Assembly (NCBI GenBank): GCA_963732385.1
Contig: CAVSZB010000007.1
Location: 1,025,685-1,089,684, forward strand
Reading direction: 5' to 3'
Length of the DNA stretch: 64,000 bases
Source: an uncultured bacterium
GTDB lineage: Bacteria > Krumholzibacteriota > Krumholzibacteriia > LZORAL124-64-63
Under the pieces are notes generated by a model. The model had not been told where the DNA came from, did not search any database, and saw only the letters and a program-made list of their open reading frames with translations. How positions within the stretch are numbered: position 1 is the stretch's first letter; each line of letters begins with the position of its first letter. The translations under genes and the position numbers were made by a program. Shown here one piece after another: positions 6,654 through 34,453 of the stretch.

Positions 6654-6672
6654 CGATCCCCCTCGCGCCGGG

Positions 6673-7062
6673 TCAGACCGCCGGGCGCGCCCGCGCCACG
6701 AGCAGTCTCTGGATCAGGTCCACCAGCCGCGAAATCGTGAACGGCTTGCGCATGAAGTGGTTCGCTCCCGCCTGCAGGATGGTGTCGCGCGTCTGCGGAT
6801 CAGCGCGCGCCGACAACGCGACAATGATCGTGTCGGCGTAGGCGCGGTTGCGCCGGATGAGACGGGTGGTGTCCACTCCGTCAAGCTTCGGCATCATGAT
6901 ATCCATGACGATCACGTCGGGCCGGAACGTCGACACCTTGTTCATGCAATCGACACCGTCCCGCGCCGTCGCGACCTGGAAGCGCTCGTTGTTCAGGGCG
7001 TGGCTGAGCACGTTCACGAGCGGCAGTTCGTCGTCAACGATCAGGACCCTTGGGGCTGCCAT
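6673..7062 (-). CDS. single-domain response regulator (CheY-like receiver)
   Basis: The receiver motifs are VLIVDDELP, DVIVMDIMMPKLDG, IIVALSAR and FMRKPF. Its 5' end overlaps the stop of HK paralog 2 by about 22 nt. GAGGGGGA lies upstream of the next gene. Confidence 0.8.
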   Translation of the reverse strand: MAAPRVLIVDDELPLVNVLSHALNNERFQVATARDGVDCMNKVSTFRPDVIVMDIMMPKLDGVDTTRLIRRNRAYADTIIVALSARADPQTRDTILQAGANHFMRKPFTISRLVDLIQRLLVARARPAV

Positions 7063-10013
7063 CTACCCTCCTGTTCGTGATCGGCGGGCACTGTCGCGGC
7101 CGCCGGCGATCCGGCCGGAGACGCCCCGAACAGGCCCTCCTCGCGCAGGACGGCCACGAAGACCTCCACGACCTCGGCGTCGAACTGCCGACCCGCGTTG
7201 CCCCGCAACTCCCCCACGGCGTGCTCCGCGGAGCGGCTCTCATGCCACGGCCGTTCCTGGCTCATGGCGAAGAAGGCATCGACCACGGCCAGAATGCGCG
7301 CGCCGAGCGGGATATCGCTGCCGAGCAGGCCACGCGGGTAGCCGCTCCCGTCCACCCGCTCGTGATGGGCCATGATGATCTGACTCATCTCGGGCGCCTG
7401 GAGCAGCGGCGACACGAGATTGGCACCCTGCTCCGGGTGCTGAGTGACCTCGTCGTGCTCGTCCTCGGTGAGTGGCCCCGTCTTGTGCAGGATCTCGTCG
7501 TCCACCGCGACCATGCCGACGTCGTGCACCGAGGCTACGTACTGCAGCCGCCGGATCTCGGCGCGCGTCAGCCCGAGCCGACGCGCGGTCTCGACGAGCA
7601 GCCGACGCGCCAGCGGGGTGGCCGTGGGGATGGCGTTGCGCTTCATGACGATCAGCGCCTGCAGGGCATCGACGATCTTCTCGACCCGCCGCGCCGAGGA
7701 GTCGGCCTGCATCGCCTGCTCCAGCGCGGCCGACACCTTGTCGCTCAGGGTCGTCACCAGGGCCAGGTCGTCTTCATTGAAGGGAGCGCCCGACACCTTG
7801 TTATTGACGTTGATCACGCCGATCGCCTTGTCGCCGATGCGCAGAGGCACCGACACCAGGGAGTGCGTTTCGTACTGATCGCGGTTCCCCGACTCGATCA
7901 GGCCGTCTTTCACGACGTCCGCCACCAGCAGTGGCCGGCCCGACTGCAGCACGCGCCCGGCGATCCCCTTGCCGATCGCCACATGCGCGCTCTTGACGAT
8001 GCTCTCGTTCAGCCCGTAGGCCGACTGCACCACGAGATTCCGTCCGTCCTTGTCGAGCAGCATGAGCGACACGATCTTCGATTCGGTCATCTCTGCGACC
8101 ATGCGCACGGTCAGACGCAGCAGCTGCTGGAACTGTGGTCGCGTCGTGAGATCGCCGAGGATGGCGGCGGTGACCGGATTGAGCTGGTGCTCCTTGGGCA
8201 GGTGGAAGATGAAAGAAGACCCTTGCCCCACCGTGCTCTGCACGTCGATGTGCCCGCCGTGCAGGTCGATGATGTTCTTGACGATCGACAGTCCGAGACC
8301 CGCCCCCTCGACCCCCTCGCTCAGGCCGCTGACGCGGTAGAACTGCCGAAATATGCGGCGCAATTCGTCGGCGGGGATGCCGGGGCCGGTGTCGCTGACC
8401 GTCACGCGGATGGTGGCGGCGTCCTCGCTGGCGCTCACCGTGACGGTGCCCCCGCCCGGCGTGTACTTGATCGCGTTGTTGAGCAGGTTGATGAGGACCT
8501 GTCGGATGAGATCGGCGTCGATCTCCACGCGGGGCAGCAGGGCCGGCACATCCAGCGTCAGGCGCAACCCCTTGGCGTCGAGGAGCGGATCGAGCGTGCG
8601 CAACGTTTCGCGGATCAGCGGCTCCAGATCGAGCACGCAACGGTTCAGGAAACGCTGCCCGAATTCGAGGCGCGAAAAGTCGAGGATGCGATTCACCATC
8701 CGCAGCAGGCGCTCGGACTCCTCGCGGATGATGCCGAGGAATTCTCCGGTCTGCGCGAAGTCCGGCCGTGCGCGTTCGCTGAGCAACGCCTCTGTGTAGG
8801 CGCTGATCGAGGTGAGCGGCGTCTTGAGTTCGTGGCTGGCCACCGCCACGAAATCGCTCTGCATCTTGTTGATGCGCGTGAGCGTCTCGTTCTCGGCGTG
8901 CAGGGAGGCCAATTCGCCCCGCAGGCGGGCCAGATGCCCGCTCGCCGCAAGCAGCGGCGCCAGCTGGCTGCCCAGGCGGACCATGGTCATCTTCAGATAA
9001 GCCTCGTCGGCCTCGTGCGACCGCAGCCCCACGAGCACGGCCAGACCGGCGGCGCCGCGTCCGACGAGCGGGGCGAGCAGCCAGCGATCGAACACAGACC
9101 CGGCGGCCGGAGGGAAGTCGGCGTCGCGCAGCGCCGCGGCAGGACCGGCAGAGAAGGGGCGATCCAAATCGCGTGCGGCGGTCCCGAAGAAGGCGGCGCT
9201 ACGGGCCGTCAGATCGATCCACTGCGGCCAGGTCTGTCCGCCCCTTACGGCGATGCAGCGCGCCGGAGTCCCGCGCTCGTCATCCACATCCGCCGGCCAG
9301 CCCGGACTGGTGATCGCGGCCGCGAACGCCACGCCCGGCACCCGGGTGAGCACGAGCACCGTTTCCTCGAGCAGATCCGCGAAGTCGCCGTCCTCGCCCA
9401 GGGCAATGCCGGCGTTGTCGGCGGTGCGCCTGGCAAGGCTGTCCACCGGCTCCGGGGTCGCCACCCACCCCGGCAGCAGCACGCGCCTGGCCGTCCGGAC
9501 GAGATGCGTGACCGACAGGAGCAGGGCGCCCAGCATCAGGGTAACCCCCAGCACCAGCCGCCAGTCGAATTCGCTCGCAGGGTCGCCACCCGGCCAGGAG
9601 ACGCTCGCCATCGCCGCGAATCCGCCGAGCAGCCCCAGCGTGGCGCCGAGACTCGACCTCGCCGAGGCACAGAGCAGGCCGGCGTGACAGGCTGGGAAGA
9701 GCAGCAGGAAGAGGTAGGGGCTGGAAACCCCGCCGGTGAGCACGAGCAACGGCAGCCAGATCGCCGCGTCGGCGAGCAGGATCGGCAGCGCCGCCAGCGG
9801 CCGTCCGCCGGAGCGGAAACCGCCGGAGAACAGCGCGAGCAGTGCCTGCAGGACGGCCGCGACGGCGAACAGCACGAGGACGGGGGGCAGCGGGAAGCGG
9901 AGCGCGGCCAGTTCACGCGAGACGAGGACGACCAGGAGGCCGACCGTCAACTCCGCCCAGCGGACCTGTCGCAGCAGGTAATGGTTGATATCGGCCACGC
10001 GATCCAAGAGCAA
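7041..10013 (-). CDS. membrane sensor histidine kinase fused to GAF and a C-terminal HD-GYP domain (5 TM - GAF-like - HisKA - HATPase_c - GAF - HD-GYP), paralog 2
   Basis: It has about five N-terminal TM helices. The H-box is SHELKTPLTSISAYTEALL. HATPase_c reads NAIKYTPGGGTVTV...VSDTGPGIP...GAGLGLSIVKNII. A GAF follows, then an HD-GYP with an intact VHDVG dyad and HHERVDGSGYPRGL. It has the same architecture as 3561..6653. Confidence 0.8.
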   Translation of the reverse strand: MLLDRVADINHYLLRQVRWAELTVGLLVVLVSRELAALRFPLPPVLVLFAVAAVLQALLALFSGGFRSGGRPLAALPILLADAAIWLPLLVLTGGVSSPYLFLLLFPACHAGLLCASARSSLGATLGLLGGFAAMASVSWPGGDPASEFDWRLVLGVTLMLGALLLSVTHLVRTARRVLLPGWVATPEPVDSLARRTADNAGIALGEDGDFADLLEETVLVLTRVPGVAFAAAITSPGWPADVDDERGTPARCIAVRGGQTWPQWIDLTARSAAFFGTAARDLDRPFSAGPAAALRDADFPPAAGSVFDRWLLAPLVGRGAAGLAVLVGLRSHEADEAYLKMTMVRLGSQLAPLLAASGHLARLRGELASLHAENETLTRINKMQSDFVAVASHELKTPLTSISAYTEALLSERARPDFAQTGEFLGIIREESERLLRMVNRILDFSRLEFGQRFLNRCVLDLEPLIRETLRTLDPLLDAKGLRLTLDVPALLPRVEIDADLIRQVLINLLNNAIKYTPGGGTVTVSASEDAATIRVTVSDTGPGIPADELRRIFRQFYRVSGLSEGVEGAGLGLSIVKNIIDLHGGHIDVQSTVGQGSSFIFHLPKEHQLNPVTAAILGDLTTRPQFQQLLRLTVRMVAEMTESKIVSLMLLDKDGRNLVVQSAYGLNESIVKSAHVAIGKGIAGRVLQSGRPLLVADVVKDGLIESGNRDQYETHSLVSVPLRIGDKAIGVINVNNKVSGAPFNEDDLALVTTLSDKVSAALEQAMQADSSARRVEKIVDALQALIVMKRNAIPTATPLARRLLVETARRLGLTRAEIRRLQYVASVHDVGMVAVDDEILHKTGPLTEDEHDEVTQHPEQGANLVSPLLQAPEMSQIIMAHHERVDGSGYPRGLLGSDIPLGARILAVVDAFFAMSQERPWHESRSAEHAVGELRGNAGRQFDAEVVEVFVAVLREEGLFGASPAGSPAAATVPADHEQEGRWQPQGS

Positions 10014-10051: not shown

Positions 10052-11038
10052 TCAGCGCGCCGTGTCCACAACGCCGGCAACGGTGGTGACGACGGGCGCC
10101 TCGTTCGGCGCGCGCCGCTCGCGGACGATCACGCTGCCGTTGATGGTCTTGCCGTAGCTCTTGAGCTCGGCGGCGATATCGCTCAGACGCGCGATGTGCT
10201 GGGCCTGTCCTGTGGCGTCGGTCACGAGCGCAATGGTCAGGGTGACGAACGGCATCATCTTCTCGAGGCCGGCGCGGCTGCGCACCTGGATGTAGCCCCG
10301 CTCGCGGTCGACCGGGTCATATAGGGCCGTTACGCCCTCGTCGAACCGCCGGATGATCTGTGCGGCGAGCGTGTCGGCATGCTCGGGGGCGGAGATGACC
10401 ACGAAGTCGTCGCCGCCGATGTGTCCGGTGAAGACCGATTGATCAACCGATTCGCGCCCGACATCGAGCAGCATCCGGGCCAGGAAACTGATCGCCTCGT
10501 CGCCCCGCGTATAACCGTAGTAGTCGTTGAAGCCCTTGAAATTATCGATGTCCAGATACAGGAAGCTGAACGGCTGCCCCTCCTGTGAACGCCGCTGCAC
10601 CTCCTGATCGATCGCCCGGTTCCCCGGCAGGCCGGTCAGCGGATTGGCGTCGCGCTGCGACTGGCTCCAGTCCAGCATGTTGCGCATGCGCAGCATCAGT
10701 TCTTCGTGGTTGAACGGCTTGGTCAGGTAGTCGTTCGCGCCCCCGCGCAGACCGCGCACCTTCTCGGAGCCCTCGCCCTTGGCGGTGAGCATGATGACCG
10801 GGATCCAGCTCGTGCGGAAGGCCTCGCGCAGTTTTTGCAGCAGCGTGAAGCCGTCCATCTTCGGCATCATCACGTCGAGCAGGATCAGGTCGGGCACGCT
10901 GCGTTCGATGAACTCGAGGGCGACCAAGCCGTTCTCCGCGAGCGTGACCTCGAAGCCCTCCTGCTCCAGCAGGAACTGGAGGATCTTCCGGATATGCGGC
11001 TCATCATCGACGACGAGAATTCTGCGGGCCGCGGACAT
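10052..11038 (-). CDS. response regulator with receiver and GGDEF (diguanylate cyclase) domains; the GGDEF motif reads GGDDF
   Basis: The REC domain reads RILVVDDEPHIRK...LILLDVMMPKMDG...LTAKG...YLTKPF. The GGDEF domain reads LYLDIDNFKGFNDYYGYTRGDEAI...RESVDQSVFTGHIGGDDFVV. I place the start at ATG 11038, which follows AGGGGGG. The track extension to 11182 (MGVRVPSMSP...) looks untranslated. Confidence 0.8.
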   Translation of the reverse strand: MSAARRILVVDDEPHIRKILQFLLEQEGFEVTLAENGLVALEFIERSVPDLILLDVMMPKMDGFTLLQKLREAFRTSWIPVIMLTAKGEGSEKVRGLRGGANDYLTKPFNHEELMLRMRNMLDWSQSQRDANPLTGLPGNRAIDQEVQRRSQEGQPFSFLYLDIDNFKGFNDYYGYTRGDEAISFLARMLLDVGRESVDQSVFTGHIGGDDFVVISAPEHADTLAAQIIRRFDEGVTALYDPVDRERGYIQVRSRAGLEKMMPFVTLTIALVTDATGQAQHIARLSDIAAELKSYGKTINGSVIVRERRAPNEAPVVTTVAGVVDTAR

Positions 11039-11194
11039 ATGCCCCCCTGACGGGCGTGCAATCTGAAGGCACGCCGCCACGATTTGGGATTTGGGGGCAT
11101 TTTTGGCAATTCGCATGCCATCGACGGGAAGAAGCGACCCCGGAATGGCGAGAGGGGACATTGAAGGAACCCGAACGCCCATTTGGGCCGATTC
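11039..11194 (-). promoter_or_regulatory. 156-bp lower-GC leader/promoter region upstream of the REC-GGDEF/HK/REC operon, with short direct repeats
   Basis: This is the only sizeable gap in the tsaD-to-priA gene run. It contains GATTTGGG-ATTTGGGGG-CATTTTTGG on plus, which is CCCAAAT repeats on the coding strand. The minus strand has a TTGCCA hexamer. The -10 is weak. Confidence 0.3.
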
Positions 11195-15587: not shown

Positions 15588-15623
15588 AGCCGGTCCCGGC
15601 TCAGGTTTTCTGGGGTTTTTTGC
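15588..15623 (+). terminator. intrinsic terminator candidate 10 nt after the CPBP stop
   Basis: There is a perfect 7-bp stem GAGCCGG-tcc-CGGCTC followed by aggTTTTcTggggTTTTTTg. It overlaps the stop codon of the convergent gene 15601..16929. Confidence 0.45.
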
Positions 15624-16929
15624 GGGCGGCCGGAAAGAGAACATTGTTCAGGATCAGCCGGTAGCCGGGCGAGGTGGGGTAGAGGTCAAGATCGGTGGGC
15701 GGATCCCCCACCGCGTGCTGGTAGTCCTCGGGATCGTGCCCGCCGAGAAACGTGAACGTGCCCTGGCCATGCTTGCCGTGGAGGTAGCGCACCTCGTCAG
15801 TCCCCTCCACCTGCGCCAGCACGATCACCGGGCGCTTGAGAAACCGCCTGTGGAAGCCGGTGGTCTGGCCCATGAAACCGTTCAGCACGTTGACATGGTC
15901 CTGGGTCAGCATCGCCGGCACCGGGTCGATCTTCGCGGAAAAGCCGAAGAGGGTGAAATCGTCGCCTTCCGGACCGCGCAACTGCGCCTCCTCGGTGGTG
16001 TCGATCGTCGAGTACTCGTAGACCAGCGGGTTGACGACGAGACTCCAGCCCTGGAACGCGAAGGCGCGACCATCTTCCCGTTTCGCTTCGCGGGCCCCGT
16101 CGAGCCCGTCCCCGTCATATTCGACCGGCACGATGTCCACGACCAGATAGCTGAGCGCGATGTCGATCGTATCGGTGGCGGAACACATGGCGAACAGGAA
16201 GCCACCCGCCGACACGTAGTCCGAGATGCGCAACGCCACCGCCTGCTTGAGCTGCCAGACCTTCGCAAACCCTAGTTCGCGCGCCAGATTCTCATTGAAG
16301 TCCTTCTGCTCGAGATACCACGGTTCGAGCTGCAGGGAGTAGAACTTGCCCGACTGCCCGGTAAAATCCTCGTGGTGCAGGTGGATCCAGTCGAACTCGC
16401 GCAGCCCCCCCGCCAGCACCTCGCGGTCGTAGATCTTCGTGTAGGGGATGTCCGCATAGTCGAGCGCGAGCATCACGGCATCGTCCCACGGCTGCGCGTA
16501 GGGCGGCGTGTAGACCGCGATGCGCGGCGCGGCCTCCAGCAACACCTCTTCCATGTTCTCCCGCGCGACGGTCGCACGTACGACCGCCACATCCGCTTCG
16601 GACAACAGATCGAACCGCACGCCCATCACCCGCGCCTCGACCCGCGCACGCTCCGTCGCGCGCAGCAGGAAACTGCCGCCGCGGTAGTTCAGCAGCCAGC
16701 TGACCGGTTCATCCGCCTGCAGCGCGTGGTAGGCATACCCGTAGGCACGCAGGTGATTCGTCTGGCCCAGGTCCATCGGCACGAGCAGCCAGTCGGCGGC
16801 GCCGGCCGGGGCGGCGACACAGACGCAGACGAGCGCGAGCAGCCAGCCGGGCAGGCGTGTCGTCGCGCCGGGCGGCCCCCACGGCCGCGGACGCCCGCCG
16901 ACGCCGGAGAAGACGCAATGGCGTTTCAT
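15601..16929 (-). CDS. secreted hypothetical protein, possibly with a class-I glutamine-amidotransferase-like (ThuA/DUF4159-type) fold
   Basis: It is 442 aa. The N-terminal signal peptide reads LPGWLLALVCVCVAAPAGAA. It has a candidate nucleophile context LFAMCSATD. Its ATG overlaps the TPR gene stop (ATGA). The family assignment is tentative. Confidence 0.55.
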   Translation of the reverse strand: MKRHCVFSGVGGRPRPWGPPGATTRLPGWLLALVCVCVAAPAGAADWLLVPMDLGQTNHLRAYGYAYHALQADEPVSWLLNYRGGSFLLRATERARVEARVMGVRFDLLSEADVAVVRATVARENMEEVLLEAAPRIAVYTPPYAQPWDDAVMLALDYADIPYTKIYDREVLAGGLREFDWIHLHHEDFTGQSGKFYSLQLEPWYLEQKDFNENLARELGFAKVWQLKQAVALRISDYVSAGGFLFAMCSATDTIDIALSYLVVDIVPVEYDGDGLDGAREAKREDGRAFAFQGWSLVVNPLVYEYSTIDTTEEAQLRGPEGDDFTLFGFSAKIDPVPAMLTQDHVNVLNGFMGQTTGFHRRFLKRPVIVLAQVEGTDEVRYLHGKHGQGTFTFLGGHDPEDYQHAVGDPPTDLDLYPTSPGYRLILNNVLFPAARKKPQKT

Positions 16930-18965
16930 GGCCGACTCCGCAGGCGGTCGCGGACATCATCCGCGAACAGGTATTCCGGATACTGCACCAGCAGGCGCTC
17001 CCACGCCGCGCGCGCGCCGTCCGGATCGCCCCGGTCCAGCCTGATCTCCCCCTCCAGCGCCAGCGCCTCGGCGGGATAGCGACCGTCGGGGTGGTCGCGC
17101 ACGATTGCCGCGCACTGCGCGAGCGCTTCCGCAGAGCGGCCGGCGGTGCGATGGAGCCGCGCCAGTTCGTACCGGGCCTGCTCCAGCAGACGCGCGTCCG
17201 ACCCCGGATCGCCCGCCGCCACCGCAGTCGCCGCGTAACGCTCCAGGGCGAAGCACTGCGAATCCGGCTGCGCGGTGATCTGGAACAGCACGCTGCGAGC
17301 GTAGCGTCCCAGCGCCTCCGGCCCGCCGGCCGGATTTTCCAGCTCCTCGGCCACGATCAGGCCGAGCGCGAGAGCATCATTGGCGTAGTCGGCCAGCGGG
17401 TTCTCGAGCGCCACGGCGGCGAGCCGATCGCGGGCCGTCTCAAAGTGGCCCTCCGCCAGGTCGAGCCGCGCCAGCGCCCAGTGCGCGCTCCCGGCGGCGG
17501 CCCGCTGCGCGGTGTGGGGGGTGCGCCCGAGCTGCGTCAGCACGACCCGCCCGCGCGCCGTATCGCCCGCCGCGAGATAGCACTCCCCCAGCGCCAGGCG
17601 CGCCAGCGCGACCCCCTCAAGCGGCAGGTCCAGGTCCGTGAGCATCCGCTCGAGCCGCGCGGCCGCCTCCGCCGGACGGTGCAGCGCGTCGCGGGTGTGG
17701 CGGGCGAGCAGAATCTGCGCCGCATAGAGGTGGGACGAGCCGGGGCTTCCCTCCCGCACGAGGGCCAGCACCCGGTCGAACCTCTGCGCCGCCGCCTCGG
17801 GATCGGCGGCGAGCAGCTCCGCGCGCAGGGCGTCCTCAGCGCTCTGGGCCAGCAGGTCGAGCGCGCGCGGCCGAAATCCGGGCGAGAGCGCGCCGGGAGC
17901 GCCGAGCCGCTCGAGGAGGGTCAGCAGGAACCCGGTCATCGCGCCGCGCGCGGCGGGGTCGGACGTCAACGGCGCCTCCCGGACAAGAGTGGCGCAGAGC
18001 TGCAACACGGCAGCCGCCTGATTCGGCTCGCCCAGAAGCGGCGTTACGGTCGCGATCGCCGCCGCCTCCTCCCCCAGGCGCAACTGCAGGCTCGCGGCCA
18101 GGATTGCCACTCCGCTCGCCCCGATTGCGTCCGGGTCGCCGAGCGCGCGCAGGGCGTGGACGAGCCGCCGGGACAGGTCCGGCGTCAACACCATGTCCAG
18201 CAGGTCCGCGCGCAGCAGCGGCAGGTTCAGCGGATCGGCGAGGGCCTGGTCCCGCAGCGCCTGCGCCCCTTCCGCGAGGCGGTCGAGGGCCAGCAGGCTG
18301 GCCGTCCGCTGGCGCGCCAGCAGCCGGACGCCGCCCGGTCGGCTGCCCATACGATCGCACAGCGCCAGCGCCTCATCGTGCCGTCCCGCGCGCTGCCACA
18401 GATCGACGGCCACGAGGGCGCCGCTGAGCGGGTCGGGGCTGACCGCGAGAAAACTGTCCACGACGGCCCGCGCGGCCGGCACCTCCGTCATGATCATCAG
18501 CGCCCCGGCCAACTCCCGCAGGAAACGCGCACTGCCCGGCTGCCCGGCCAGACCCTCGCGGCACAGGCGCACGGTCCCGGCGGGATCGCCCTCGGCCCTG
18601 GACAGGGCGATCCAGCGCGGCAGCGATTCGCGCCGGGGAACACCCTCCGCCTCCACGCCGGCCAGGGTCTGACGGGCCCGCGCGACCTGACCCAGGGCGA
18701 GCAGCTTGTCGACCTCCGCCAGCCGCAACTGCCACTCGGCCAGCGGCATGGCTGGCGAGAGCCGCGAACGCGGCAGCGGGATCATCCCCGGCGGCAAAGA
18801 GAGCGGCGGCTGATCAGGACCAGGCACGACCGGAGCGGGCCGCAAAGCGGGGGGGGGCGTCACCGGCCGCGCCGTCGCCAGGCGGATCGTCCCCCCGGGC
18901 CCTCCGCAGACGACCGCCAACATCAGGCTCACAACCAGCGCGCGGCCGGACCGGGTCGGCGTCAT
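16926..18965 (-). CDS. tetratricopeptide-repeat protein with an N-terminal signal peptide (BatC/BatE-like context)
   Basis: It is 679 aa, rich in A/L/R, with repeated xLAxAxxxLGxxxxA TPR-like units throughout. The signal peptide is MTPTRSGRALVVSLMLAVVCGG. Its ATG overlaps the downstream stop. Confidence 0.7.
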   Translation of the reverse strand: MTPTRSGRALVVSLMLAVVCGGPGGTIRLATARPVTPPPALRPAPVVPGPDQPPLSLPPGMIPLPRSRLSPAMPLAEWQLRLAEVDKLLALGQVARARQTLAGVEAEGVPRRESLPRWIALSRAEGDPAGTVRLCREGLAGQPGSARFLRELAGALMIMTEVPAARAVVDSFLAVSPDPLSGALVAVDLWQRAGRHDEALALCDRMGSRPGGVRLLARQRTASLLALDRLAEGAQALRDQALADPLNLPLLRADLLDMVLTPDLSRRLVHALRALGDPDAIGASGVAILAASLQLRLGEEAAAIATVTPLLGEPNQAAAVLQLCATLVREAPLTSDPAARGAMTGFLLTLLERLGAPGALSPGFRPRALDLLAQSAEDALRAELLAADPEAAAQRFDRVLALVREGSPGSSHLYAAQILLARHTRDALHRPAEAAARLERMLTDLDLPLEGVALARLALGECYLAAGDTARGRVVLTQLGRTPHTAQRAAAGSAHWALARLDLAEGHFETARDRLAAVALENPLADYANDALALGLIVAEELENPAGGPEALGRYARSVLFQITAQPDSQCFALERYAATAVAAGDPGSDARLLEQARYELARLHRTAGRSAEALAQCAAIVRDHPDGRYPAEALALEGEIRLDRGDPDGARAAWERLLVQYPEYLFADDVRDRLRSRP

Positions 18966-20827
18966 CGCACGGCTCCCGGAACCGGGGCCGGCTCCGGCCG
19001 ATCCGGCACCGCCACCGGCGGCGAGAGTAGATTCTCCAGCGCCAGGTAGTACCGCCGCACCAGATCGCGATAGTCCGCCGGAGCCTTCGCCACGGACTCC
19101 TGACGGCGTTGGAAGAAGGGCGCCGCACCACCCGCCGAAGGGGCGTCCCCTTCGCCCTGCTGCCGCGCGAACGGCGTCCCCGCGGCGCGGCTCTCGCGTC
19201 GCCGGGTGAAATCGCGCTTGCGGACCGAATTGTGCGCATCGAGCAACCGGCCCAGGATCCGCTCCTGTCGCGCGAGCGTTTCGTCGTCGACGCGCCCCGC
19301 CCCCAGATCGTCGGCCACCCGTTCCATGTCTCGCGCCAGCTGGTCAAGATCGCCCAGCACCCGTTCGCCCGGAGGCGCGGTCCGCTCGCCACGCGCCAGC
19401 TCCTCCAGCCGGCCGGCGAGCCCCCCCTGCTCCGACTGCAGTCGCTGCATGCGGGCCCGCGCCTCCTGGCTCGGTCCCTGCTTCTGCATCTGGCGCTGCA
19501 GTTCCTGCGCCAGGGCGTTGAGTCCCGCCTGTTCCTGGGCCATCTGCTGCAACTGCCCGCTCGGCGTCGGCATGGCCCCCCCGCCGCCACTCCCCTGCCC
19601 GGTCTGCTGCGCGGCGGTGAGCAGATCGATCACGATCCGGTTGATCTTCCCGATGCTGTCCCGCGATTCGCGTCTGGCCATGGCGCCGGTCCGCTGCTCC
19701 AGCCCCTGCACGGCGCCGTTGAGCCCCCCCACGACGGCGTCCAGATCGCGCATCATCCGCATGGAGATCGCAGGCGATCGGGAGCCGACCTCCTGCATCC
19801 GGTCACGCACCCCGCGCGCCGCCCGCAGCACGCGGTTCTGGCGCCGCGCCAGATCCCCCAGCGCCACGCCACGCAACTCGGCCGGCACCGAGCCGGCGAT
19901 CTCCTCCTCGCGCTCGGAGAGGGCCAGCAGATCCGCGGCGATACGGCGCAGATTGACGGCGGTGTACTGCTGCATGGCCCCCTGCATCTGCATCTGTCCA
20001 CGCAGCAGGACGTGATAAAGCGCGGCCAGTTCGCGCAAAGCCTGCTGCTGCGGCTCCTGCGGCGGTGGCGACGGCGACGGCGGGGGGGGCGGCGGCGCGG
20101 AGAGTCGGCGCGACGCTTCCGCCATATCCTGATCGGGCCGCTGCTCCTGCAGCTGCTTCAGCGCCTCCTGCAGCGCCTCGCGCATCGCCTCGGCCGTTGG
20201 ACCGGCTTCCCGGTCAGGGGCGCGGTCACGGTCGCGCTCGAGCCGGTCGAGCGCCTCGCGCAGCCGCGCCTCGAGTTGGCGCACCTCCTCCGCAAGGGCG
20301 GTCTGGCGCTGCGCTTCCTCTGCCGACTGCGGCGACGGTATTGGCGCCGACTGCGGCGACGCCGGAGACGGCGCCTGCTCCGCCGACCCGGTCCGGCCCG
20401 CGTCGGTGCGCTTCCCTGTGCTGTCGGTCCCGGCGGCGTCGAGCAGGGCCTGTTGTTCTCGCAGCAGGCGCTCGACCACCGACGTCAGCCCCTCCATCTC
20501 CTGTTCCCGGGCCATCTCCTTCAGCAACCCGATGGCGCGGTCGAGACGCTCCTTGTACTCCTCCTGGTTCCGGGCGATCTGCTCCATGGCCTGCCGCACC
20601 TGCTCCGGAGACAGCCCGGCGGCCTGTTCACGCAACTGTTCCAGGAGCCGGTCCAGCTCCTCGCTGCGCACCTGTTCGATCAGCGCGGCGACCTCCTGCA
20701 TCTTCCCGAGCAGTTCGACCGAGTTCAGGTTGTCCTGCTCGAGGCGCGCGATATCCTGCTGCAGCGCCTGCGCCGCGTTCCGGTACTCGTCCTGCAGGGC
20801 GCGCTGCCGTTCGAGCGCCGCCTGCAC
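18962..20827 (-). CDS. Gln/Glu/Arg-rich coiled-coil protein; probably the 3' part of a frameshifted single gene together with 20725..22635
   Basis: It is 621 aa with heptad-like composition (ALERQRALQDEYRNAAQALQQDIARLEQ...). Upstream of the track start, the frame stays open and protein-like: ...QGEELTHELEKLDRDLRQDARAGWEQRQQ. Confidence 0.6.
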   Translation of the reverse strand: MQAALERQRALQDEYRNAAQALQQDIARLEQDNLNSVELLGKMQEVAALIEQVRSEELDRLLEQLREQAAGLSPEQVRQAMEQIARNQEEYKERLDRAIGLLKEMAREQEMEGLTSVVERLLREQQALLDAAGTDSTGKRTDAGRTGSAEQAPSPASPQSAPIPSPQSAEEAQRQTALAEEVRQLEARLREALDRLERDRDRAPDREAGPTAEAMREALQEALKQLQEQRPDQDMAEASRRLSAPPPPPPSPSPPPQEPQQQALRELAALYHVLLRGQMQMQGAMQQYTAVNLRRIAADLLALSEREEEIAGSVPAELRGVALGDLARRQNRVLRAARGVRDRMQEVGSRSPAISMRMMRDLDAVVGGLNGAVQGLEQRTGAMARRESRDSIGKINRIVIDLLTAAQQTGQGSGGGGAMPTPSGQLQQMAQEQAGLNALAQELQRQMQKQGPSQEARARMQRLQSEQGGLAGRLEELARGERTAPPGERVLGDLDQLARDMERVADDLGAGRVDDETLARQERILGRLLDAHNSVRKRDFTRRRESRAAGTPFARQQGEGDAPSAGGAAPFFQRRQESVAKAPADYRDLVRRYYLALENLLSPPVAVPDRPEPAPVPGAVR

Positions 20828-22635
20828 CTGCTGCCGCTGCTCCCACCCGGCGCGGGCGTCCTGCCGCAGATCCCGGTCGAGCTTCTCGAGTTCATGCGTG
20901 AGCTCTTCCCCCTGCGACGCAGCCCCTCCAGCGCCTCCACCCGGTCCCGGCCGCCACCCACCTCGTCGGCAAGGATCTCGGTCGCCGATGGCAGGGCCAG
21001 CCGCAGCACAGACGAACGGGTGCTGCCGGACGGGCCAGGCTCGCGGTTGTCGGTGACCTCGACACAGAGCGCGAGCACGTCCCCCGACCGGAGTTCAAGC
21101 CCCGCGGTTTCCAGCGCCAGCGGCAGGGCGAGCGGCCCGGCCGGGACGGCACCCGCGAGCGGTCCCGCGGCCACCGCGGCGGCGCCCCACGACGTTGCCA
21201 GGCCGAGGGCCCCTTCCCCGCCAGGGCCGTGCGGCGGCCAGATGGTGACGCGGCTCCAGTCCGGCCATTCACCGGCCGCCGTCTCCGCCGGCTCCCCCTC
21301 GCCACGTTCGCGGCGCAGCAGCAGATCGAGCCTGGTCACGCCATAGTCATCGCCGGCGCCGGCGACGAGCTCCACGTGCCCATCCCCCGGCAGGCGCCCG
21401 TCGTCGGCGGGACGCGTCAGAGTGGCCGCGGGCGGGGCGTCGGGAATCGCCTCGACGCCATAGGTCACGCGGGGGGAGTTCTCGAGACCGCGCCGATCGC
21501 GCAGCCGGACCGTGTAGACGAGCGCGTCCTTCACGACAGCGGCGCCGCGCAACGTGTCTCCCCGCACGACCAGCGGCACGGTATCGCCTCCGGCCGTGAC
21601 GACCACGGCGCGCGTGACCGCGCCCGCGGCGAGCCCCAGCCACGTCAGCCGGCTGCCGGAAGGCGCCTGCAGACGGCCCGGGAACCGCGCCATGGTCTGT
21701 GCCGGCAGGCGTGTGTAGGCGGGCGGCAGCAGCGTCCCGCCCCATACTCCCAGCAACGGCGGGTGGATGACAGTCACCGCGGCCTCGGCGGTGGTGGCGC
21801 CGTCACGACCGAAGCGGTAGACGAAGGACTCGCGCACATCCGGCAGAGTCGCCGACCAGGTTGTCCCCATCCGGCCGAACGGGGCGCGGGTCGGCGCGCA
21901 GGTCACCCGCTGCCACAGGCCGCTGCCGACACGCAGCTCGCAGGCCACCGGCGCACGATTGCGGCCGAGATCGCGCGCGGCAATGGTCACGTCGGCGCCG
22001 GCGATCACCTCGCGCGGTCCTTCGATCAGATAAATCCCTGCGCCGGGCGGGAGGCGTTCGTCGCGCAGCGGCAGCAGCAGCCGCAGGCCCCCGACCGCGA
22101 AGCGTTGCGGGGCCATCGCCCCGGCCCACAGGAGCAGACCGGCGGCCAGGGTCGCGCCGAGGATCGTCACCCAGGCGCCCGGCAGCGGCAGCCGTCGCCC
22201 CAGCCGGATTTCCAGCGTCCGGCCCAGCGCGGATGTGTACAGCCGGTCCACCAGCGCGGCCGACACGCCCGCCCCGGGGCCCCAGCGATCGGGCCGGCGG
22301 GCCGCCTCCTCCGCCGCCACGAGCAGGTTGTCCAGCCCGCCCCGCTGTTCGAGCTCGCGGCAGAGGGCGCCGCGATCCCGCAGACGCAGCAGAGGTCGCG
22401 CCAGTCGTGTCCAGGCCACGGCCGCCACGAGCGCCAGCGTGCAGACCAGCAGTCCGCCCCGCGCCGCCGCCGAAGGGGCAATCTCGCCACCGAGCGCCCA
22501 GGCGGCGACGATCCCGAGGAGCCCCGCCGCCGCCACGAGGGAGAGGACGCCGTGGAGCAGCACGCGGCGCCGCGCGGCGCCCAGCAGGCACCCGAGCTCA
22601 CGGTCGAATCGCCCCCGGGACTCTGTGTCGGCCAT
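20725..22635 (-). CDS. membrane protein (3 TM N-terminus plus large extracytoplasmic domain); probably the 5' part of a frameshifted gene continuing into 18962..20827
   Basis: The TM helices are VLLHGVLSLVAAAGLLGIVAAWALG, LLVCTLALVAAVAWT and AWVTILGATLAAGLLLWAGAM. The last ~60 residues (KSSRMNSRSSTGICGRTPAPGG...) are low-complexity, off-frame-looking sequence. They overlap the next ORF by 100 nt. Confidence 0.6.
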   Translation of the reverse strand: MADTESRGRFDRELGCLLGAARRRVLLHGVLSLVAAAGLLGIVAAWALGGEIAPSAAARGGLLVCTLALVAAVAWTRLARPLLRLRDRGALCRELEQRGGLDNLLVAAEEAARRPDRWGPGAGVSAALVDRLYTSALGRTLEIRLGRRLPLPGAWVTILGATLAAGLLLWAGAMAPQRFAVGGLRLLLPLRDERLPPGAGIYLIEGPREVIAGADVTIAARDLGRNRAPVACELRVGSGLWQRVTCAPTRAPFGRMGTTWSATLPDVRESFVYRFGRDGATTAEAAVTVIHPPLLGVWGGTLLPPAYTRLPAQTMARFPGRLQAPSGSRLTWLGLAAGAVTRAVVVTAGGDTVPLVVRGDTLRGAAVVKDALVYTVRLRDRRGLENSPRVTYGVEAIPDAPPAATLTRPADDGRLPGDGHVELVAGAGDDYGVTRLDLLLRRERGEGEPAETAAGEWPDWSRVTIWPPHGPGGEGALGLATSWGAAAVAAGPLAGAVPAGPLALPLALETAGLELRSGDVLALCVEVTDNREPGPSGSTRSSVLRLALPSATEILADEVGGGRDRVEALEGLRRRGKSSRMNSRSSTGICGRTPAPGGSSGSRCRRRSNGSAPCRTSTGTRRRRCSRISRASSRTT

Positions 22636-22663: not shown

Positions 22664-23359
22664 TCAGGGACTGGTCAGGGCGTACATGAGAACGTTCACG
22701 GCCATCCGGACCGCCGCCTCGCGGAGCGCGGGCGGATCGCCGTGCACCTCCGGATCTTCCAGCCCGTCCCCGATGTCGCTGGAGAAACTGTAGAAGACGA
22801 CCAGACGACCGCCACGATATACGCCGAACCCTTGCGCCGGTTCCCCGTCGTGTTCGTGGATCTTGGGCAGGCCCGGCAGATCATAGAAGGCGTGGTAGAT
22901 CGGATCGTCCGAGCCGACCCGCCGCAGCGGCGCGTCGGGATAGAGCCGCACCATCAATTCCCGGAACGACGCATCCAGACCATAGTTGTCGTCGGCCCAG
23001 AGGAAGCCCCCCGCCTCGAGGTAGCGCCGCAGGACCGTCAGTTCCGCCTCCGCGAGCGCAATGCGGCCGTGTCCGGTCAGATACAGCAGCGGATAGCGGT
23101 GGAGGTCCTCACTGTCGAGGGCGACGACCGCCTCCTCGCGCGCGGTCGGCAGCCCGGTGCGCGCGGCGAACTGCTCCAGCCAGTTCGGCAGCGAACTGGG
23201 ATTGGCGTACCAGTCACCCCCGCCCGGATAGCGCAGCCGTCCCACCTGGAGATCGGATTCGGCCGCCGCCGCGACCGGGATACCGGCCACGCCGGCGAGC
23301 AGGGCCAGCACGACCGCACCCGCCACCGCGAGGGCGGCCGCGGCGCGGCTGGGGGCCAT
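22664..23359 (-). CDS. DUF4159-like secreted protein (GATase1-like; a family I recall as associated with MoxR/vWA Bat-type operons)
   Basis: The signal peptide is MAPSRAAAALAVAGAVVLALLAGVAGIPVAAAAE. The conserved blocks are RYPGGGDWYANP, YPLLYLTGHG and GGFLWADDNYG. I chose the start as the Met giving a canonical signal peptide and no overlap with the HK upstream. Confidence 0.6.
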   Translation of the reverse strand: MAPSRAAAALAVAGAVVLALLAGVAGIPVAAAAESDLQVGRLRYPGGGDWYANPSSLPNWLEQFAARTGLPTAREEAVVALDSEDLHRYPLLYLTGHGRIALAEAELTVLRRYLEAGGFLWADDNYGLDASFRELMVRLYPDAPLRRVGSDDPIYHAFYDLPGLPKIHEHDGEPAQGFGVYRGGRLVVFYSFSSDIGDGLEDPEVHGDPPALREAAVRMAVNVLMYALTSP

Positions 23360-23372
23360 CCGCCGGGCGGCC

Positions 23373-26300
23373 TCAGGGCCGGTGCTCATCCTCCCCCACC
23401 TCCTCGCCGCCGGTACCGGCGCGGTCAAAACCCTGTGCCGCGCGCGGCAGGGTCACCGCCACCACCGCGCCGCCGCTATCGGCCCGATTGGAGAGCGCGA
23501 TGCGTCCCCCCATGCGGTCGAGCAGGCTGCGGCAGATCGCCAGGCCGAGTCCGGTGCCCTGGCTCTTGGTGGAGAAATACAGTTCGAACAGGCGGTCGGC
23601 CATGTCCGGCGGAACGCCGGGCCCGTTGTCCTCCCAGAGCAGCGTCACTTCGCGCTCCCCGATCTCCCACCGGACCCGCAACTCCAGGCGGGATGGCTCC
23701 CCCACCGCCTGCAGAGAGTTCTCCATCAGGTTGCCCAGCACCTTCCCGATCGCCTCGGCATCGGCCAGCACCGGCGGCACGGCATCGGGATCGATCGTGA
23801 CCCGCGGACCGACGCCCACTACTCCACCGGCGCGGTAGCGCGCCGTCACCTGTCGCGCGGCGTCCGGCAGGTCCAGTGGCGCCACCGGCAGCGCGCCCGG
23901 CTTGCCGAGCAGGCTGAACTCGATGGCGATAGCGCGCAACAGCGCCACCTGTTCCAGCACCTGGCGCACCGTGTCGCGCACGATCCCGTCCAGCTCCGGA
24001 GCACGGTCGCGGTAGGCCTGCTCCAGGAACTGGACCGAAAGCTGGATCGGCGTGAGCGGATTCTTGATCTCGTGCGCCACCTGTTGCGCCAGTTCGGAAT
24101 TCAGCGCCAGCCGCTTGTTGTCGAGAAACTCCGTCACATCCTCGCAGACAAGCAGCGTGTCCGAGCGTCCGTCCGGCAGACGCAGGGGGGCGACCCGGCC
24201 GCGCACGATGCGCCGGCCATCGGCCGCGCGCAGTTCAGCCTCCCCCTGCGGCACGTCACCCAGTCGGGCGCGCAGGCCGGCCAGCAGCGCCCGCACCCGC
24301 CCCTCGCGGCCCGCACCGGCGCCGCCCGCGAAGGCGTCCGCGATCGCAACGGCGGCCGGATTGAGCGCCGTCACGCCGCCGTCGGCGCCAAACACCGCCA
24401 CGCCGACCGGCACGTGCTCCAGAATCGTGGCGAGGAAGCGCTCCCGCTCGGCCACCGTCCGCTGCGCCTGGGCCAGATCGTCGCGCATGCTGCGGTAGGC
24501 CGCGCTCAACAGGCCGATCTCGTCGCCGCCGCTCTCTGGCAGCGGCGCCGCGAAGTCCCCTGTCGCGAGACTGCGCGTGGCGGTGACCAGCACGCGCACC
24601 GGGCCGAAGATCTTCCAGGCGAGCGCCAGCGCCAGGGCCGCGGCCGCCAGGAAGATGAGCGCCGCCAGGCCAACCAGGAAAAGCGCCATCCGCTCCCGCT
24701 GCCCTGCGAGGTCGCGCTCCCGGGCCGGGAACGTCACCGACAGGGCGGCCGGCACGGGACGGCGCCGCAGGCCCGGCGCGCCGGAATCGACCGCGAGGGC
24801 CGGCAGCGCCACAGTCGCCGTGTAGGAGAGCCACGTGCCAGGCGCCGCGGCCAGCGCGGGGCTGCCGGGGTAGAGCGCGATCTGGCGCGCCGTGACGGGC
24901 GGCAGGAGCGCCGGAACCGCCCCCGCGAACAGCCGCTCGGGGTGGCTGGCGAGCACCGTCGCACCGCCCGCGCTCAACGCCACCTCCCCCTGGATGATCT
25001 CGGCCAGGCCGTTCATCAGACCGGAATCGACCCGTTGCCGGTAGAAGAAGAAGCCGTCACGGCGTTCGTCGGCAAGGCTGTCGGCCGGCGCAGCACGGCC
25101 GGACGACGGCGCGAATCCGGACAGATCGACCGGCACGACGAGTCCCAGGTACAGGACATCGCCCGACTCCATGAGGATGAGCGGCGCCGCGCGCGCTGCC
25201 GCCAGGAACCGCCGCGCCTCTTCCGCGTCGAGATCGCTGAGGGTCTCGTCAAGCAGCAGTTCGCCATCGCCCGTGAATACCATCGCCTGGCGCACCGAGA
25301 ACGGCCCGAGCGGGCGCTGTCCGGCCAGCCGGCTCGCCAGCAGGTCGGCGATGTACTCGCTGCCGGCCAGGGCCCGCGCCTGTTCGCTCAGCAGGCCCTG
25401 CAACTGCGCGACGGCCGCCTCGATCCCGTCGCGGGTCTGCTCGCGTGCGCCCGCCGCCAGTCCCTGCACGGTGAGACGATCCATGAACAGTCCGGCCAGC
25501 AGCAGCGGCAGCAGGCCGAGCACCAGCACCGCCGCGAGGAACCGCTGCTGGAAACCGAGCGACGGCCGGGGCCGGCGCGCCAGCCGCAGCGGCAGCAGCG
25601 GCGCAACCAGGCACGCGGCGAGCAGCAGATCGAGCAGGACCAGGCGGGAGGCGTCGAGCAGGCGATCCGCCAGACGCGGTCGTTCGAGTCCGAGCAGGAA
25701 CCCCTCGCCGGGCGAGCCGGCGGCCGGCTCCGGCAGGCGTTTCCAGAGACAGCGGTACGCCAATCCGCCCGCGCGCACCGTGGCCCAGCGCGCGCGGCCG
25801 GCCTTGAGCACGCCGGTGACAGCGGTCTCGTCCGCGTCGGGAAAGAGGCCGGGGCCCGCGTCGAGCCAGCCGCGATCGTCTCCGCGCAGGAGCAGAATCG
25901 CGCGGTCCACCTCGGCTCGCGGCACGTAGCCGGACGCCCCCGCCGGCGACGGCGTCCCCTCCAGACGGGCCAGCAGCGTGCGGATGCGCCGCGACTGCAC
26001 CGGCAACTCGATCCTGATCCAGCCGCCCCCGCCGGCCCTGGGCACCTCTCCGCGCAGGATCCACTCCTCGCCGGAAGGATAGCGGCGCCGCTCCGTCTGC
26101 GTGCGCAGCCCGGCCGGGATCAGGCCGCCCTCCTCCGGCGAGACCACGGTCAGCCACACCCCACGCTCGCCGACTTCGTAACGGAAGTCGCGGAAGAAGC
26201 CGGAGGCGAACAGACTTTCCCGCTCCCCGTACGGGTCGATCAGTTCCACCAGGCAGGGCAGGCCGAGATCGCCAAGATCCGACCTCCGCCACAGTTCGTA

Positions 26301-33744: not shown

Positions 33745-34353
33745 CTACGGGGTCGATCGGGTCATGTCGACCTGGCCGCGCAGCTGGAAGTACTGCCTGG
33801 TCAAGCCGTTGGCTACCGAGTCCCGGCTGGCTACGTAGAACTCCTGCTCGCCGTTCACGATGATGGTGTTCGCATCGGGGCGCGAGAAGGTGATCTGGAT
33901 TTCGTACAGCCCTTTCCGGGTATTAGGAAAATTGGTATCGCTCGGACCGACGTCGATCCAGATGCCCAGCCGGTTGAGCACGGCGATCGAGATGCTCGAA
34001 ATGGCCGGCACAGTCGTGTCCCCGGGCCGCTCGATCGGCAGGCCGGAGAACATGTTCTCCGTCACCGCGAGTTCCTCGGCGTAGGTGAAGCGATCGCTCC
34101 CGCCAGGTGGCACATCCTCAGCGCGGAGGATGAAGAGATAATCCGGATGCAGCACGGGGCGGTAGTTGTCGATGTTCATGCTGGTGTAGGCTGTCTTGAA
34201 GTTGGCGATCAACTGGTCTTCGCTGTCCGGAAATGGGATCACGGGCGGAGGAGGCGGCGGCTGAGTGTCGTTGTCCGGCGAAAAGAGGCAGCCGGAGCCC
34301 GTCAGGACGGCGAGCAACAGCGGCATCAGGAAGGCAAGTCTGAGGATCCGCAT
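33745..34353 (-). CDS. lipoprotein, paralog B (lipobox LTGSGC)
   Basis: The start is MRILRLAFLMPLLLAVLTGSGC-LFSP, followed by a Pro-rich linker (PPPPPPV) and a ~170-aa domain. It is a paralog of 34454..35092. Confidence 0.6.
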   Translation of the reverse strand: MRILRLAFLMPLLLAVLTGSGCLFSPDNDTQPPPPPPVIPFPDSEDQLIANFKTAYTSMNIDNYRPVLHPDYLFILRAEDVPPGGSDRFTYAEELAVTENMFSGLPIERPGDTTVPAISSISIAVLNRLGIWIDVGPSDTNFPNTRKGLYEIQITFSRPDANTIIVNGEQEFYVASRDSVANGLTRQYFQLRGQVDMTRSTP

Positions 34354-34453
34354 GGAGAAACCTCCGTTTGCTGACGCATGCACCGTGACGGGGCCACGGC
34401 GCACGAAACCCTGTCCACGAGGTTTGCTATGAGTATAGCCTATCAAGGAGCGG

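What the first reader, a model, noticed from the sequence alone, without database searches (positions are those of the whole stretch)
20700..20990. Probable frameshift at a C5/G5 homopolymer splitting one ~1200-aa membrane/coiled-coil gene into two overlapping ORFs
ORF 20725..22635 ends in about 60 residues of off-frame-looking Ser/Arg/Cys junk and overlaps ORF 18962..20827 by about 100 nt. In the other frame, the downstream ORF stays open and protein-like upstream of its annotated start (...QGEELTHELEKLDRDLRQDARAGWEQRQQ|VQAALERQ...). The two frames meet at the run CCCCC, about 20907-20912 on plus, which is cagGGGGGaag on the coding strand. One extra G gives the continuous reading ...VEALEGLRRRGEELTHELEKLDRDLRQD.... 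That would fuse a 3-TM membrane protein with a large extracytoplasmic domain to a ~600-aa Q/E/R coiled coil. It is either a homopolymer sequencing error, a genuine pseudogene, or a phase-variable or programmed shift in a Bat-like envelope protein.
Basis: seen in the sequence. Interest (0 to 1): 0.55.

Follow-up and report, generated by a model that had tools for sequence, protein, structure and literature searches.

The report
One-base frameshift splitting an envelope gene
A single missing G in a short run of Gs cuts one conserved 1,224-residue membrane protein gene into two overlapping reading frames; this is an ordinary recent lesion or base-count error, because the intact version occurs in the same organism elsewhere and in every relative.

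Summary
Minus-strand ORFs 20725..22635 and 18962..20827 are two halves of one DUF4175-family gene. Restoring one base at CAGGGGGAA (G run 20908-20912) gives a 1,224-aa protein. It is colinear with 13 single-ORF orthologs, and 53 of 57 related loci carry one open frame of at least 1,000 codons.

The shift is not conserved. The G run exists only in the four closest relatives, where it is in frame. There is no canonical slippery heptamer, no unusual downstream RNA structure and no Rfam hit. Both halves show equal purifying selection (omega 0.27 and 0.22), so the lesion is very recent or not real.

It is the only mid-gene frame switch in the 64 kb. An independent assembly (ERR15459710) that encodes identical flanking proteins carries the gene as one ORF exactly 1 nt longer. 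In a second run (ERR12035938) two contigs end exactly on the G run, as a G5/G6 bubble would predict, while ten G/C runs of 6-9 nearby cause no break.

My preferred reading, at confidence 0.5, is a real G6-to-G5 deletion allele that coexists with the intact allele. A consensus miscount remains possible at about 0.33. Programmed frameshifting and a dedicated phase-variation switch are unlikely. This is an ordinary finding.

The parts
18962..22635 (-). The whole disrupted gene. It is 3,674 nt and would encode a 1,224-aa DUF4175-family membrane protein if one base were restored.
   Evidence: Pfam DUF4175 scores 37.1 bits against a cutoff of 27.3. Thirteen orthologs of 1,163-1,259 aa cover 90-100% of the repaired protein. 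The same gene is 3,675 nt with a 1,224-aa product on the ERR15459710 contig.
20908..20914 (-). The lesion site. The coding strand reads C-A-GGGGG (G run 20912..20908). One base is missing relative to all relatives.
   Evidence: This is the only indel whose length is not a multiple of 3 in the gene alignment with L001. L001, L040, L002 and L075 read CGC AAG GGG GA. The ERR12035938 contigs end at 20908 and start at 20912.
20725..20907 (-). The out-of-frame tail of the upstream ORF: 60 Ser/Arg/Cys-rich codons and a stop. In the other frame the same DNA encodes conserved residues 577-637.
   Evidence: Codon-position GC periodicity changes between 20960 and 20870.
20825..20827 (-). The GTG that the ORF listing takes as the start of the downstream ORF. 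It is an internal Val codon, not a conserved start.
   Evidence: Orthologs have V, A, L, I or M at this column inside a continuous alignment.
22114..22548 (-). The N-terminal membrane anchor. It holds three hydrophobic segments (residues 30-48, 56-79, 151-174) with Arg-rich stretches on the inferred cytoplasmic side.
   Evidence: Kyte-Doolittle scan and K/R counts. The topology is inferred from the positive-inside rule.
20986..22038 (-). The extracytoplasmic all-beta region (about residues 200-550), predicted as tandem Ig-like beta sandwiches.
   Evidence: The AlphaFold2 model of residues 176-575 has mean pLDDT 84.7. Foldseek PDB hits are generic multi-Ig chains.
18965..20985 (-). The long helical Q/E/R/A-rich region (residues about 551-1224). 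It starts 25 residues before the lesion, so the frameshift falls inside a predicted continuous helix.
   Evidence: A helix spans residues 376-399 of the 400-residue model, which is protein residues 551-574. The C-terminal motifs RILGRLLDAHNSVRKRDF and YRDLVRRY are conserved.
22664..23389 (-). The upstream neighbour, a DUF4159 protein of 241 aa that ends 28 nt before the gene.
   Evidence: Pfam E = 3e-58. The exact protein is on the two Logan contigs. Synteny is kept in L001.
16926..18965 (-). The downstream neighbour, a 679-aa TPR protein. Its ATG overlaps the stop of the split gene (ATGA).
   Evidence: The exact protein is on the Logan contigs of ERR15459710 and ERR12035938.

Best explanation
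The window carries a one-G deletion allele of a conserved single-copy DUF4175-family envelope gene. The run is G5 where the intact allele most likely has G6 (CGC AGG GGG GAA = Arg-Arg-Gly-Glu).

Shown: the gene is one ORF in all relatives. The lesion is a single missing base at 20908-20914. It is unique to this sequence. An intact copy exactly one base longer exists in an independent assembly that encodes identical neighbours.

Inferred: the deletion arose by ordinary replication slippage on a run that became six Gs through an AAG-to-AGG change in this lineage. It is very recent and coexists with the intact allele in nature.

Inferred effect on the protein: translation yields the 3-TM anchor and the Ig-like ectodomain, then 60 junk residues and a stop. 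The helical C-terminal 650 residues are lost, because the only in-frame start is an internal GTG and no signal peptide precedes a region that is normally extracytoplasmic. The allele is therefore a null or severe hypomorph, not a designed recoding or switching device.
For: Orthologs are single ORFs colinear through the junction, and 53 of 57 related loci have one open frame of at least 1,000 codons. The only frame-breaking indel against L001 in the gene is at 20914, and it is the only uncompensated 1-nt coding indel across 23.6 kb of synteny. It is the only mid-gene frame switch in the 64-kb window. dN/dS is 0.27 upstream and 0.22 downstream of the lesion, so there is no decay. The ERR15459710 contig carries the identical DUF4159 and TPR proteins, the same 28-nt spacer, and the gene at 1430-5104, which is 3,675 nt and 1,224 aa against 3,674 nt here. 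In ERR12035938 the left contig ends at the position matching window 20908 and the right contig starts at 20912. These are exactly the flanks of a de Bruijn bubble between G5 and a longer run, and they do not fit an A/AA variant (arithmetic in the report). Ten G/C runs of 6-9 nt in the same 7.4 kb cause no break, and none is out of frame in the window. That argues against a generic homopolymer-calling problem.
Against: No reads could be inspected, and the DNA of the two Logan contigs was not available. The allele inference therefore rests on gene coordinates and assumes no other indels. The sequencing platforms of the runs and of the window's assembly are unknown. If ERR12035938 is the read set behind this assembly, the two G5 observations are not independent. 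The exact repaired protein, with R or K at residue 575, was not found by exact look-up, so the intact copy differs somewhere or is not indexed there. The four nearest relatives have AAG GGG, which on its own would favour a lost A.
Confidence: 0.5

Rival explanations
1. Consensus or base-calling error. The organism has six Gs and an intact gene, and the assembly under-called the run by one.
For: The lesion lies at a homopolymer. Both halves are under equal purifying selection and nothing else in the gene is damaged. An intact copy one base longer exists with identical neighbours. A related long-read MAG (L040) shows how badly such assemblies can be affected: about 45 single-base insertions in 15.6 kb. 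Four of 57 related MAG loci are broken at other positions.
Against: The window is otherwise clean. There is no other mid-gene frame switch in 64 kb, and no uncompensated coding indel against L001 in 23.6 kb. This holds despite 39 G/C runs of 6 or more, including 14 of 7-9 nt. An error-prone platform should fail first on the longer runs. The ERR12035938 graph breaks only at this run, which implies both lengths are well represented there.
Confidence: 0.33
2. Phase variation. The G tract is a contingency locus that reversibly switches an envelope protein on (G6) and off (G5) by slipped-strand mispairing.
For: The product is a membrane-anchored protein with a large exposed domain. The evidence points to G5 and a longer allele in one run and the intact form in another. 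The window itself has G5.
Against: The tract is only 5/6 nt, whereas known contingency tracts are usually 7 or more (established knowledge). There are 187 G/C runs of 5 or more in this window, so the tract is not special. It is absent from 51 of 55 orthologous sites and is G5 in frame in the other four. Longer runs (G7, C8) in the same gene show no heterogeneity. A single segregating mutation explains the data equally well.
Confidence: 0.08
3. Programmed -1 ribosomal frameshifting or transcriptional slippage at G GGG AAG makes the full-length protein from the G5 sequence.
For: The required shift is -1. A P-site tRNA-Gly on GGG can re-pair perfectly one base back (G GGG). Low-level spontaneous slippage could therefore leak some full-length protein (inference only).
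Against: None of about 55 orthologous sites needs a shift. The heptamer is not of the X XXY YYZ type. The 116-nt stretch spanning the shift site and its downstream flank folds no better than shuffles (z = +0.81). There is no Rfam match. G5 is far shorter than the A/T runs known to drive transcriptional slippage (established knowledge).
Confidence: 0.02
4. Two genuinely separate genes, each with its own start, function as a split version of the protein.
For: Both ORFs are long, and a GTG exists at 20827 with a GGAG 12-16 nt upstream.
Against: No relative is split here. The GTG is an internal, non-conserved codon. Sixty codons of ORF1 are out-of-frame junk over conserved sequence. The break lies inside a predicted continuous helix. 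The C-terminal half lacks any export signal although it follows an outward-facing TM3 (inference).
Confidence: 0.02

Closest known systems
Frameshifted genes at short homopolymers ('frameshifted' pseudogene calls in genome annotation; homopolymer indel artefacts in assemblies)
   Same: There is a single 1-nt length change in a G/C run, with two overlapping ORFs that together match one ortholog. There is no other damage.
   Different: Nothing differs in kind. There is indirect evidence that the short and long alleles coexist in environmental read sets.
Pfam DUF4175 (PF13779) family of long bacterial membrane proteins
   Same: The score is above the gathering threshold. The protein has N-terminal TM helices followed by about 1,000 residues outside the membrane. 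Distant family members (Hyphomicrobiales P0014, and P0015) align across the junction.
   Different: Only profile positions 189-327 of 825 match the Pfam model. This clade (Krumholzibacteriia-like MAGs) is divergent, with its own conserved C-terminal motifs. No function is known; the only mention found in the literature searched is a DUF4175 region in Acinetobacter AdvA (PMC7481262).
Slipped-strand phase variation at poly-G/C tracts (contingency loci; the reversible glpK 7C frameshifts of M. tuberculosis, cited from my own knowledge)
   Same: The reading frame of an envelope protein gene is set by the length of a G run, with apparent length heterogeneity among samples.
   Different: The tract is only 5/6 nt and is not conserved. 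It is not the longest run in the gene. No reversibility or elevated rate has been shown.
dnaX-type programmed -1 ribosomal frameshifting
   Same: A -1 shift would be needed, and a P-site GGG could re-pair.
   Different: There is no canonical heptamer, no stimulatory structure and no conservation of the shift. The long product, not the short one, is the ancestral form.
Bat/MoxR aerotolerance-type module (MoxR AAA_3, DUF58, BatA-VWA)
   Same: The window encodes MoxR, DUF58 and BatA_N-VWA on the same strand at 53586-57670. The split gene's neighbour is DUF4159, which often travels with such modules (my own knowledge).
   Different: The split gene is about 33 kb from that module. It has no BatA or BatD Pfam match.

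Membership tests
DUF4175 (PF13779) | Pfam match above the gathering score | tested here: met
   ORF1 scores 37.1 bits against a cutoff of 27.3, E = 1.4e-9. Ten of 14 aligned family members match.
DUF4175 (PF13779) | A single long polypeptide: N-terminal TM helices plus about 1,000 extracytoplasmic residues | tested here: met
   This is met only after one base is restored. The repaired protein is 1,224 aa, has 3 hydrophobic segments, and is colinear with orthologs of 1,163-1,259 aa and with distant members.
Programmed -1 ribosomal frameshift | The frameshift requirement is conserved in orthologs | tested here: not met
   Orthologous sites read through in one frame in about 55 loci.
Programmed -1 ribosomal frameshift | Canonical slippery heptamer X XXY YYZ | tested here: not met
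   The site is G GGG AAG in the zero frame. The A-site Lys codon cannot re-pair canonically.
Programmed -1 ribosomal frameshift | Downstream stimulatory hairpin or pseudoknot | tested here: not met
   MFE is -47.1 against a shuffle mean of -50.0, z = +0.81. No Rfam hit at E <= 1.
Homopolymer contingency locus (phase variation) | Long tract, typically 7 nt or more | tested here: not met
   The tract is G5 here, with G6 inferred for the intact allele. There are 148 G/C 5-runs and 39 runs of 6 or more in the window.
Homopolymer contingency locus (phase variation) | Tract-length heterogeneity within populations | tested here: inconclusive
   The contig ends in ERR12035938 fit a G5/longer bubble, and ERR15459710 is intact. 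No reads were seen.
Homopolymer contingency locus (phase variation) | The tract is maintained in related strains or species | tested here: not met
   A G5 run occurs in 4 closest relatives, in frame. The longest G run is 4 or less in the other 51.
Decayed pseudogene | Multiple disabling mutations or relaxed selection | tested here: not met
   There is one lesion only. Omega is 0.22 downstream and 0.27 upstream.
Bat aerotolerance operon protein | Homology to BatA-E, or adjacency to MoxR/DUF58/BatA | tested here: not met
   There is no Bat Pfam hit on either half or on the fusion. The MoxR-DUF58-BatA genes are at 53586-57670.

The most novel reading that the evidence does not exclude
The G5/G6 tract is a real on/off switch. 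Under this reading, populations of this uncultured Krumholzibacteriia-like bacterium keep both lengths and toggle expression of the full-length DUF4175 envelope protein. That would be the first hint of contingency-type variation, and of a selectable phenotype, for this uncharacterised family.
Probability: 0.07. Interest if true: 0.4.

Novelty: already known. Interest (0 to 1): 0.12.

Why it matters
The main consequence is for annotation. The two ORFs should be merged and flagged as one frameshifted DUF4175-family gene, not reported as two proteins. If the G5 allele is real, it is a natural knockout or hypomorph of a protein conserved across Krumholzibacteriia-like MAGs and more widely among bacteria, yet with no known function. 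Comparing G5 and G6 abundance across samples could then hint at when the protein is dispensable. No new mechanism is implied.

Tried and rejected
- **Source of the window.** Exact look-ups of both window ORFs found nothing. The genome-contig scan found only relatives of 93% identity or less.
- **DNA pattern scan.** A scan of metagenome contigs for either allele returned 0 matches, not even L001's contig, so that collection simply lacks these sequences.
- **Protein-guided scan.** This added one 87%-identical relative, L075, which is also in frame.
- **Exact look-ups of repaired proteins.** The repaired proteins (R575 and K575) and the two partial products were not in the collection. The sequence of the intact 1,224-aa copy could therefore not be read.
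- **Run accessions.** They were not found in the literature library.
- **Parsimony on the missing base.** I first concluded from the relatives that the missing base was an A (AAG GGG). I revised this after the contig-end arithmetic, which fits G5/G6 and not A/AA.
- **GC3 frame plot.** On its own it was not crisp, because the helical half is rich in GAG/CAG/CGG. Second-position GC and a codon-usage Viterbi resolved the switch.
- **Structure and function.** The PDB sequence search gave nothing meaningful. Foldseek gave only generic tandem Ig-like matches, so no functional assignment was made.
- **NCBIfam.** It gave no hit for either half.
Full report
**What is in the sequence**

Two long ORFs lie on the minus strand. 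One is 20725..22635 (636 aa, ATG start). The other is 18962..20827 (621 aa, GTG start). They overlap by 103 nt.

The frame of the downstream ORF stays open upstream to 21094. The only C5 run in the overlap zone is 20908-20912, which reads cgcaGGGGGaagag on the coding strand.

After this run the upstream ORF continues for 60 codons that are 25% Ser, 25% Arg and 7% Cys. The other frame reads GEELTHELEKLDRDLRQDARAGWEQRQQVQAALERQ.

Inserting one base at the run gives an uninterrupted 1,224-aa product. Going from the first frame to the second needs a -1 shift (or +2).

Codon-position GC periodicity changes between 20960 and 20870. A codon-usage Viterbi places the switch at 20919/20920.

**It is one gene**

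- The upstream half matches Pfam DUF4175 above its gathering score.
- The repaired protein finds 13 proteins of 1,163-1,259 aa that cover 90-100% of it. The best is 90% identical and 1,219 aa long.
- All of them align without a gap through the junction...LRR[KR]G[ED][ED]L....
- Distant DUF4175 members also give single alignments that span the junction, covering query residues 206-734 and 268-1202.
- A scan of species-representative genomes returned 73 related loci, mostly Krumholzibacteriia-like MAGs. In 53 of the 57 examined, one open frame of at least 1,000 codons covers the match. The four broken ones (L034, L040, L042, L047) are broken at other places.
- The GTG taken as the start of the downstream ORF is an internal codon. 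Orthologs have V, A, L, I or M there.

**Where the lesion is**

The window's gene is 91% identical in DNA to L001, a 176-kb JGI contig that is syntenic over 23.6 kb. That alignment has three indels. Two are in frame (9 and 6 nt). The third is a 1-nt gap at 20914.

L001, L040, L002 and L075 all read CGC AAG GGG GA(A/C), whereas the window reads CGC AGG GGG AAG. The missing base is therefore one of C-[A]-A-GGGGG-[G].

The G run is not a conserved feature. Only these four closest relatives have it, and in them it is in frame. In the 51 other orthologous sites the longest G run is 4 or less.

**Is the assembly generally unreliable?**

It is not.

- Over the 23.6 kb shared with L001, every other 1-nt gap is either intergenic or one of a compensating pair a few bases apart. 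Position 20914 is the only uncompensated coding indel.
- Over the whole window there are 32 same-strand frame switches. All coincide with the stop of the upstream gene, or are blips shorter than 60 nt between genes, except the one at 20919.
- This holds despite 148 G/C runs of 5 and 39 of 6 or more, including 14 of 7-9 nt.
- By contrast L040, a MAG with long-read-style contig names, carries about 45 single-base insertions relative to the window in 15.6 kb.

**Age of the lesion**

Nei-Gojobori dN/dS against L001 is 0.27 for codons 1-575 and 0.22 for codons 576-1224. The part downstream of the frameshift has been under the same purifying selection as the rest. The lesion is therefore either very recent or not real.

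**Independent assemblies of the same organism**

The window's exact 679-aa TPR protein and its exact 241-aa DUF4159 protein both occur on Logan contigs from two public runs.

In ERR15459710 a 7,396-nt contig carries:

| Gene | Contig coordinates |
|---|---|
| DUF4159 | 676-1401 |
| One gene with a DUF4175 hit and a 1,224-aa product | 1430-5104 |
| TPR | 5101-7140 |

The 28-nt spacer and the 4-nt stop/start overlap are the same as in the window. The gene is 3,675 nt there against 3,674 nt here (22635 down to 18962). The intact form therefore exists in an organism with identical neighbouring proteins.

In ERR12035938 the same stretch is in two contigs with the same outer ends:

- The left contig is 3,157 nt, and the gene runs from 1430 to the contig end (576 codons).
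- The right contig is 4,243 nt, with a partial gene at 2-1951 (649 codons).

Converted to window coordinates, the left contig ends at 20908, the last G of the run. The right contig starts at 20912, the first G of the run.

These are the flanks a de Bruijn graph leaves around an unresolved bubble between a G5 allele and a longer-run allele. The last shared k-mer ends ...CGCAGGGGG and the first shared k-mer begins GGGGGAAG....

In the coordinates of the intact contig, the two pieces overlap at 3154-3157. That is what G5 versus G6 predicts if the intact gene reads AGG GGG GAA. An A/AA difference would put the ends at 3152 and 3153, and it does not fit.

The same 7.4 kb contains ten G/C runs of 6-9 nt in the window, and none of them breaks the contigs. 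This is inference from coordinates. The DNA of these contigs was not available, and exact look-ups of the repaired or partial proteins found nothing.

**What the protein looks like**

- Three hydrophobic segments lie at residues 30-48, 56-79 and 151-174. Arg-rich stretches occupy the N-terminus and the 77-150 loop. By the positive-inside rule, everything after residue 175 would be outside the cytoplasm.
- An AlphaFold2 model of residues 176-575 has mean pLDDT 84.7. It shows tandem beta sandwiches and then a helix from residue 551 that runs into the junction.
- Foldseek returns only generic multi-Ig chains.
- The remaining 650 residues are A/R/L/Q/E-rich and carry conserved C-terminal motifs.
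- No solved relative was found, and no functional literature beyond a mention of a DUF4175 region in Acinetobacter AdvA.
- The gene sits between a DUF4159 gene and a TPR gene, downstream of a 1,632-aa histidine kinase and SecDF. This order is kept in L001.
- MoxR, DUF58 and BatA-VWA genes lie 33 kb away on the same strand.

**Mechanism**

Programmed recoding is very unlikely:

- No relative needs a shift.
- The site G GGG AAG is not a canonical heptamer.
- The 116-nt RNA that spans the shift site and its downstream flank folds no better than shuffles (z = +0.81).
- Rfam finds nothing.

A dedicated phase-variation tract is also unlikely. The run is short and lineage-specific. It is one of 187 G/C runs of 5 or more in the window, and it is shorter than other runs in the same gene.

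Two ordinary explanations remain. One is a real G6-to-G5 deletion allele that coexists with the intact allele. The other is a consensus miscount.

I favour the real allele, at about 0.5. The window is otherwise free of homopolymer problems. The one run that breaks the ERR12035938 graph is this one, not the longer ones.

The artefact reading keeps about 0.33. No reads were seen, the platforms are unknown, and the window may derive from the same sample as ERR12035938.

If the allele is real, the cell makes a truncated protein: anchor, Ig-like domains and 60 junk residues. It loses the helical half, which has no independent export signal. At most, spontaneous -1 slippage on G GGG could leak a trace of full-length product (inference).

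**Verdict**

The finding is correct but ordinary. It is a single-base frameshift in a short G run of a conserved gene of unknown function. It should be annotated as one frameshifted gene.

Noticed in passing
window 53586-57670 (-): A MoxR (AAA_3) gene at 56681-57670, a DUF58 gene at 55788-56867 and a BatA_N+VWA gene at 53586-55754 form a classic MoxR-DUF58-BatA module. It lies 33 kb upstream of the DUF4159/DUF4175 pair on the same strand.
   Followed up: partly
L040:1-15661 (CAVYVY010000019.1, MFD01299.bin.2.49): This related MAG contig carries about 45 single-base insertions relative to the window in 15.6 kb, many of them outside homopolymers. Its DUF4175 ortholog is broken into at least three frames, so the assembly is noisy.
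   Followed up: partly
L034, L042, L047 (match regions): Three further related MAGs have the ortholog interrupted at positions other than the window's site. Sporadic breaks of this long gene occur in about 7% of MAGs.
   Followed up: no
window 24064 and 16670: The Logan contigs from two different runs start and end at identical positions. The left end falls in the H-box motif (HEIKNPL) of the histidine kinase, probably a k-mer shared with paralogous kinases. The cause of the right end is not obvious.
   Followed up: no
window 3561-6653 and 7041-10013 (-): Two tandem paralogous genes each encode a HisKA-HATPase-GAF-HD_5 protein (1,030 and 990 aa). A response-regulator-GGDEF gene follows at 10052-11182.
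   Followed up: no
window 20060-20100 and 20362-20370 (-): A Pro/Ser-rich low-complexity linker (PPPPPPSPSPPP, C8 on the coding strand) and a nearby segment differ from relatives by in-frame 3-9 nt indels. The linker length is variable within the family.
   Followed up: no
window 946-57670: Almost every gene over about 57 kb is on the minus strand, and cumulative GC skew falls steadily. This is consistent with one replichore arm and strong co-orientation.
   Followed up: no
window 15601-16929, 33745-35128, 35092-37800, 59270-60898 (-): Several sizeable ORFs with coding-like codon usage have no Pfam match: 442, 238, 224, 902 and 542 aa. The 442-aa one is conserved next to the TPR gene in L001.
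   Followed up: no
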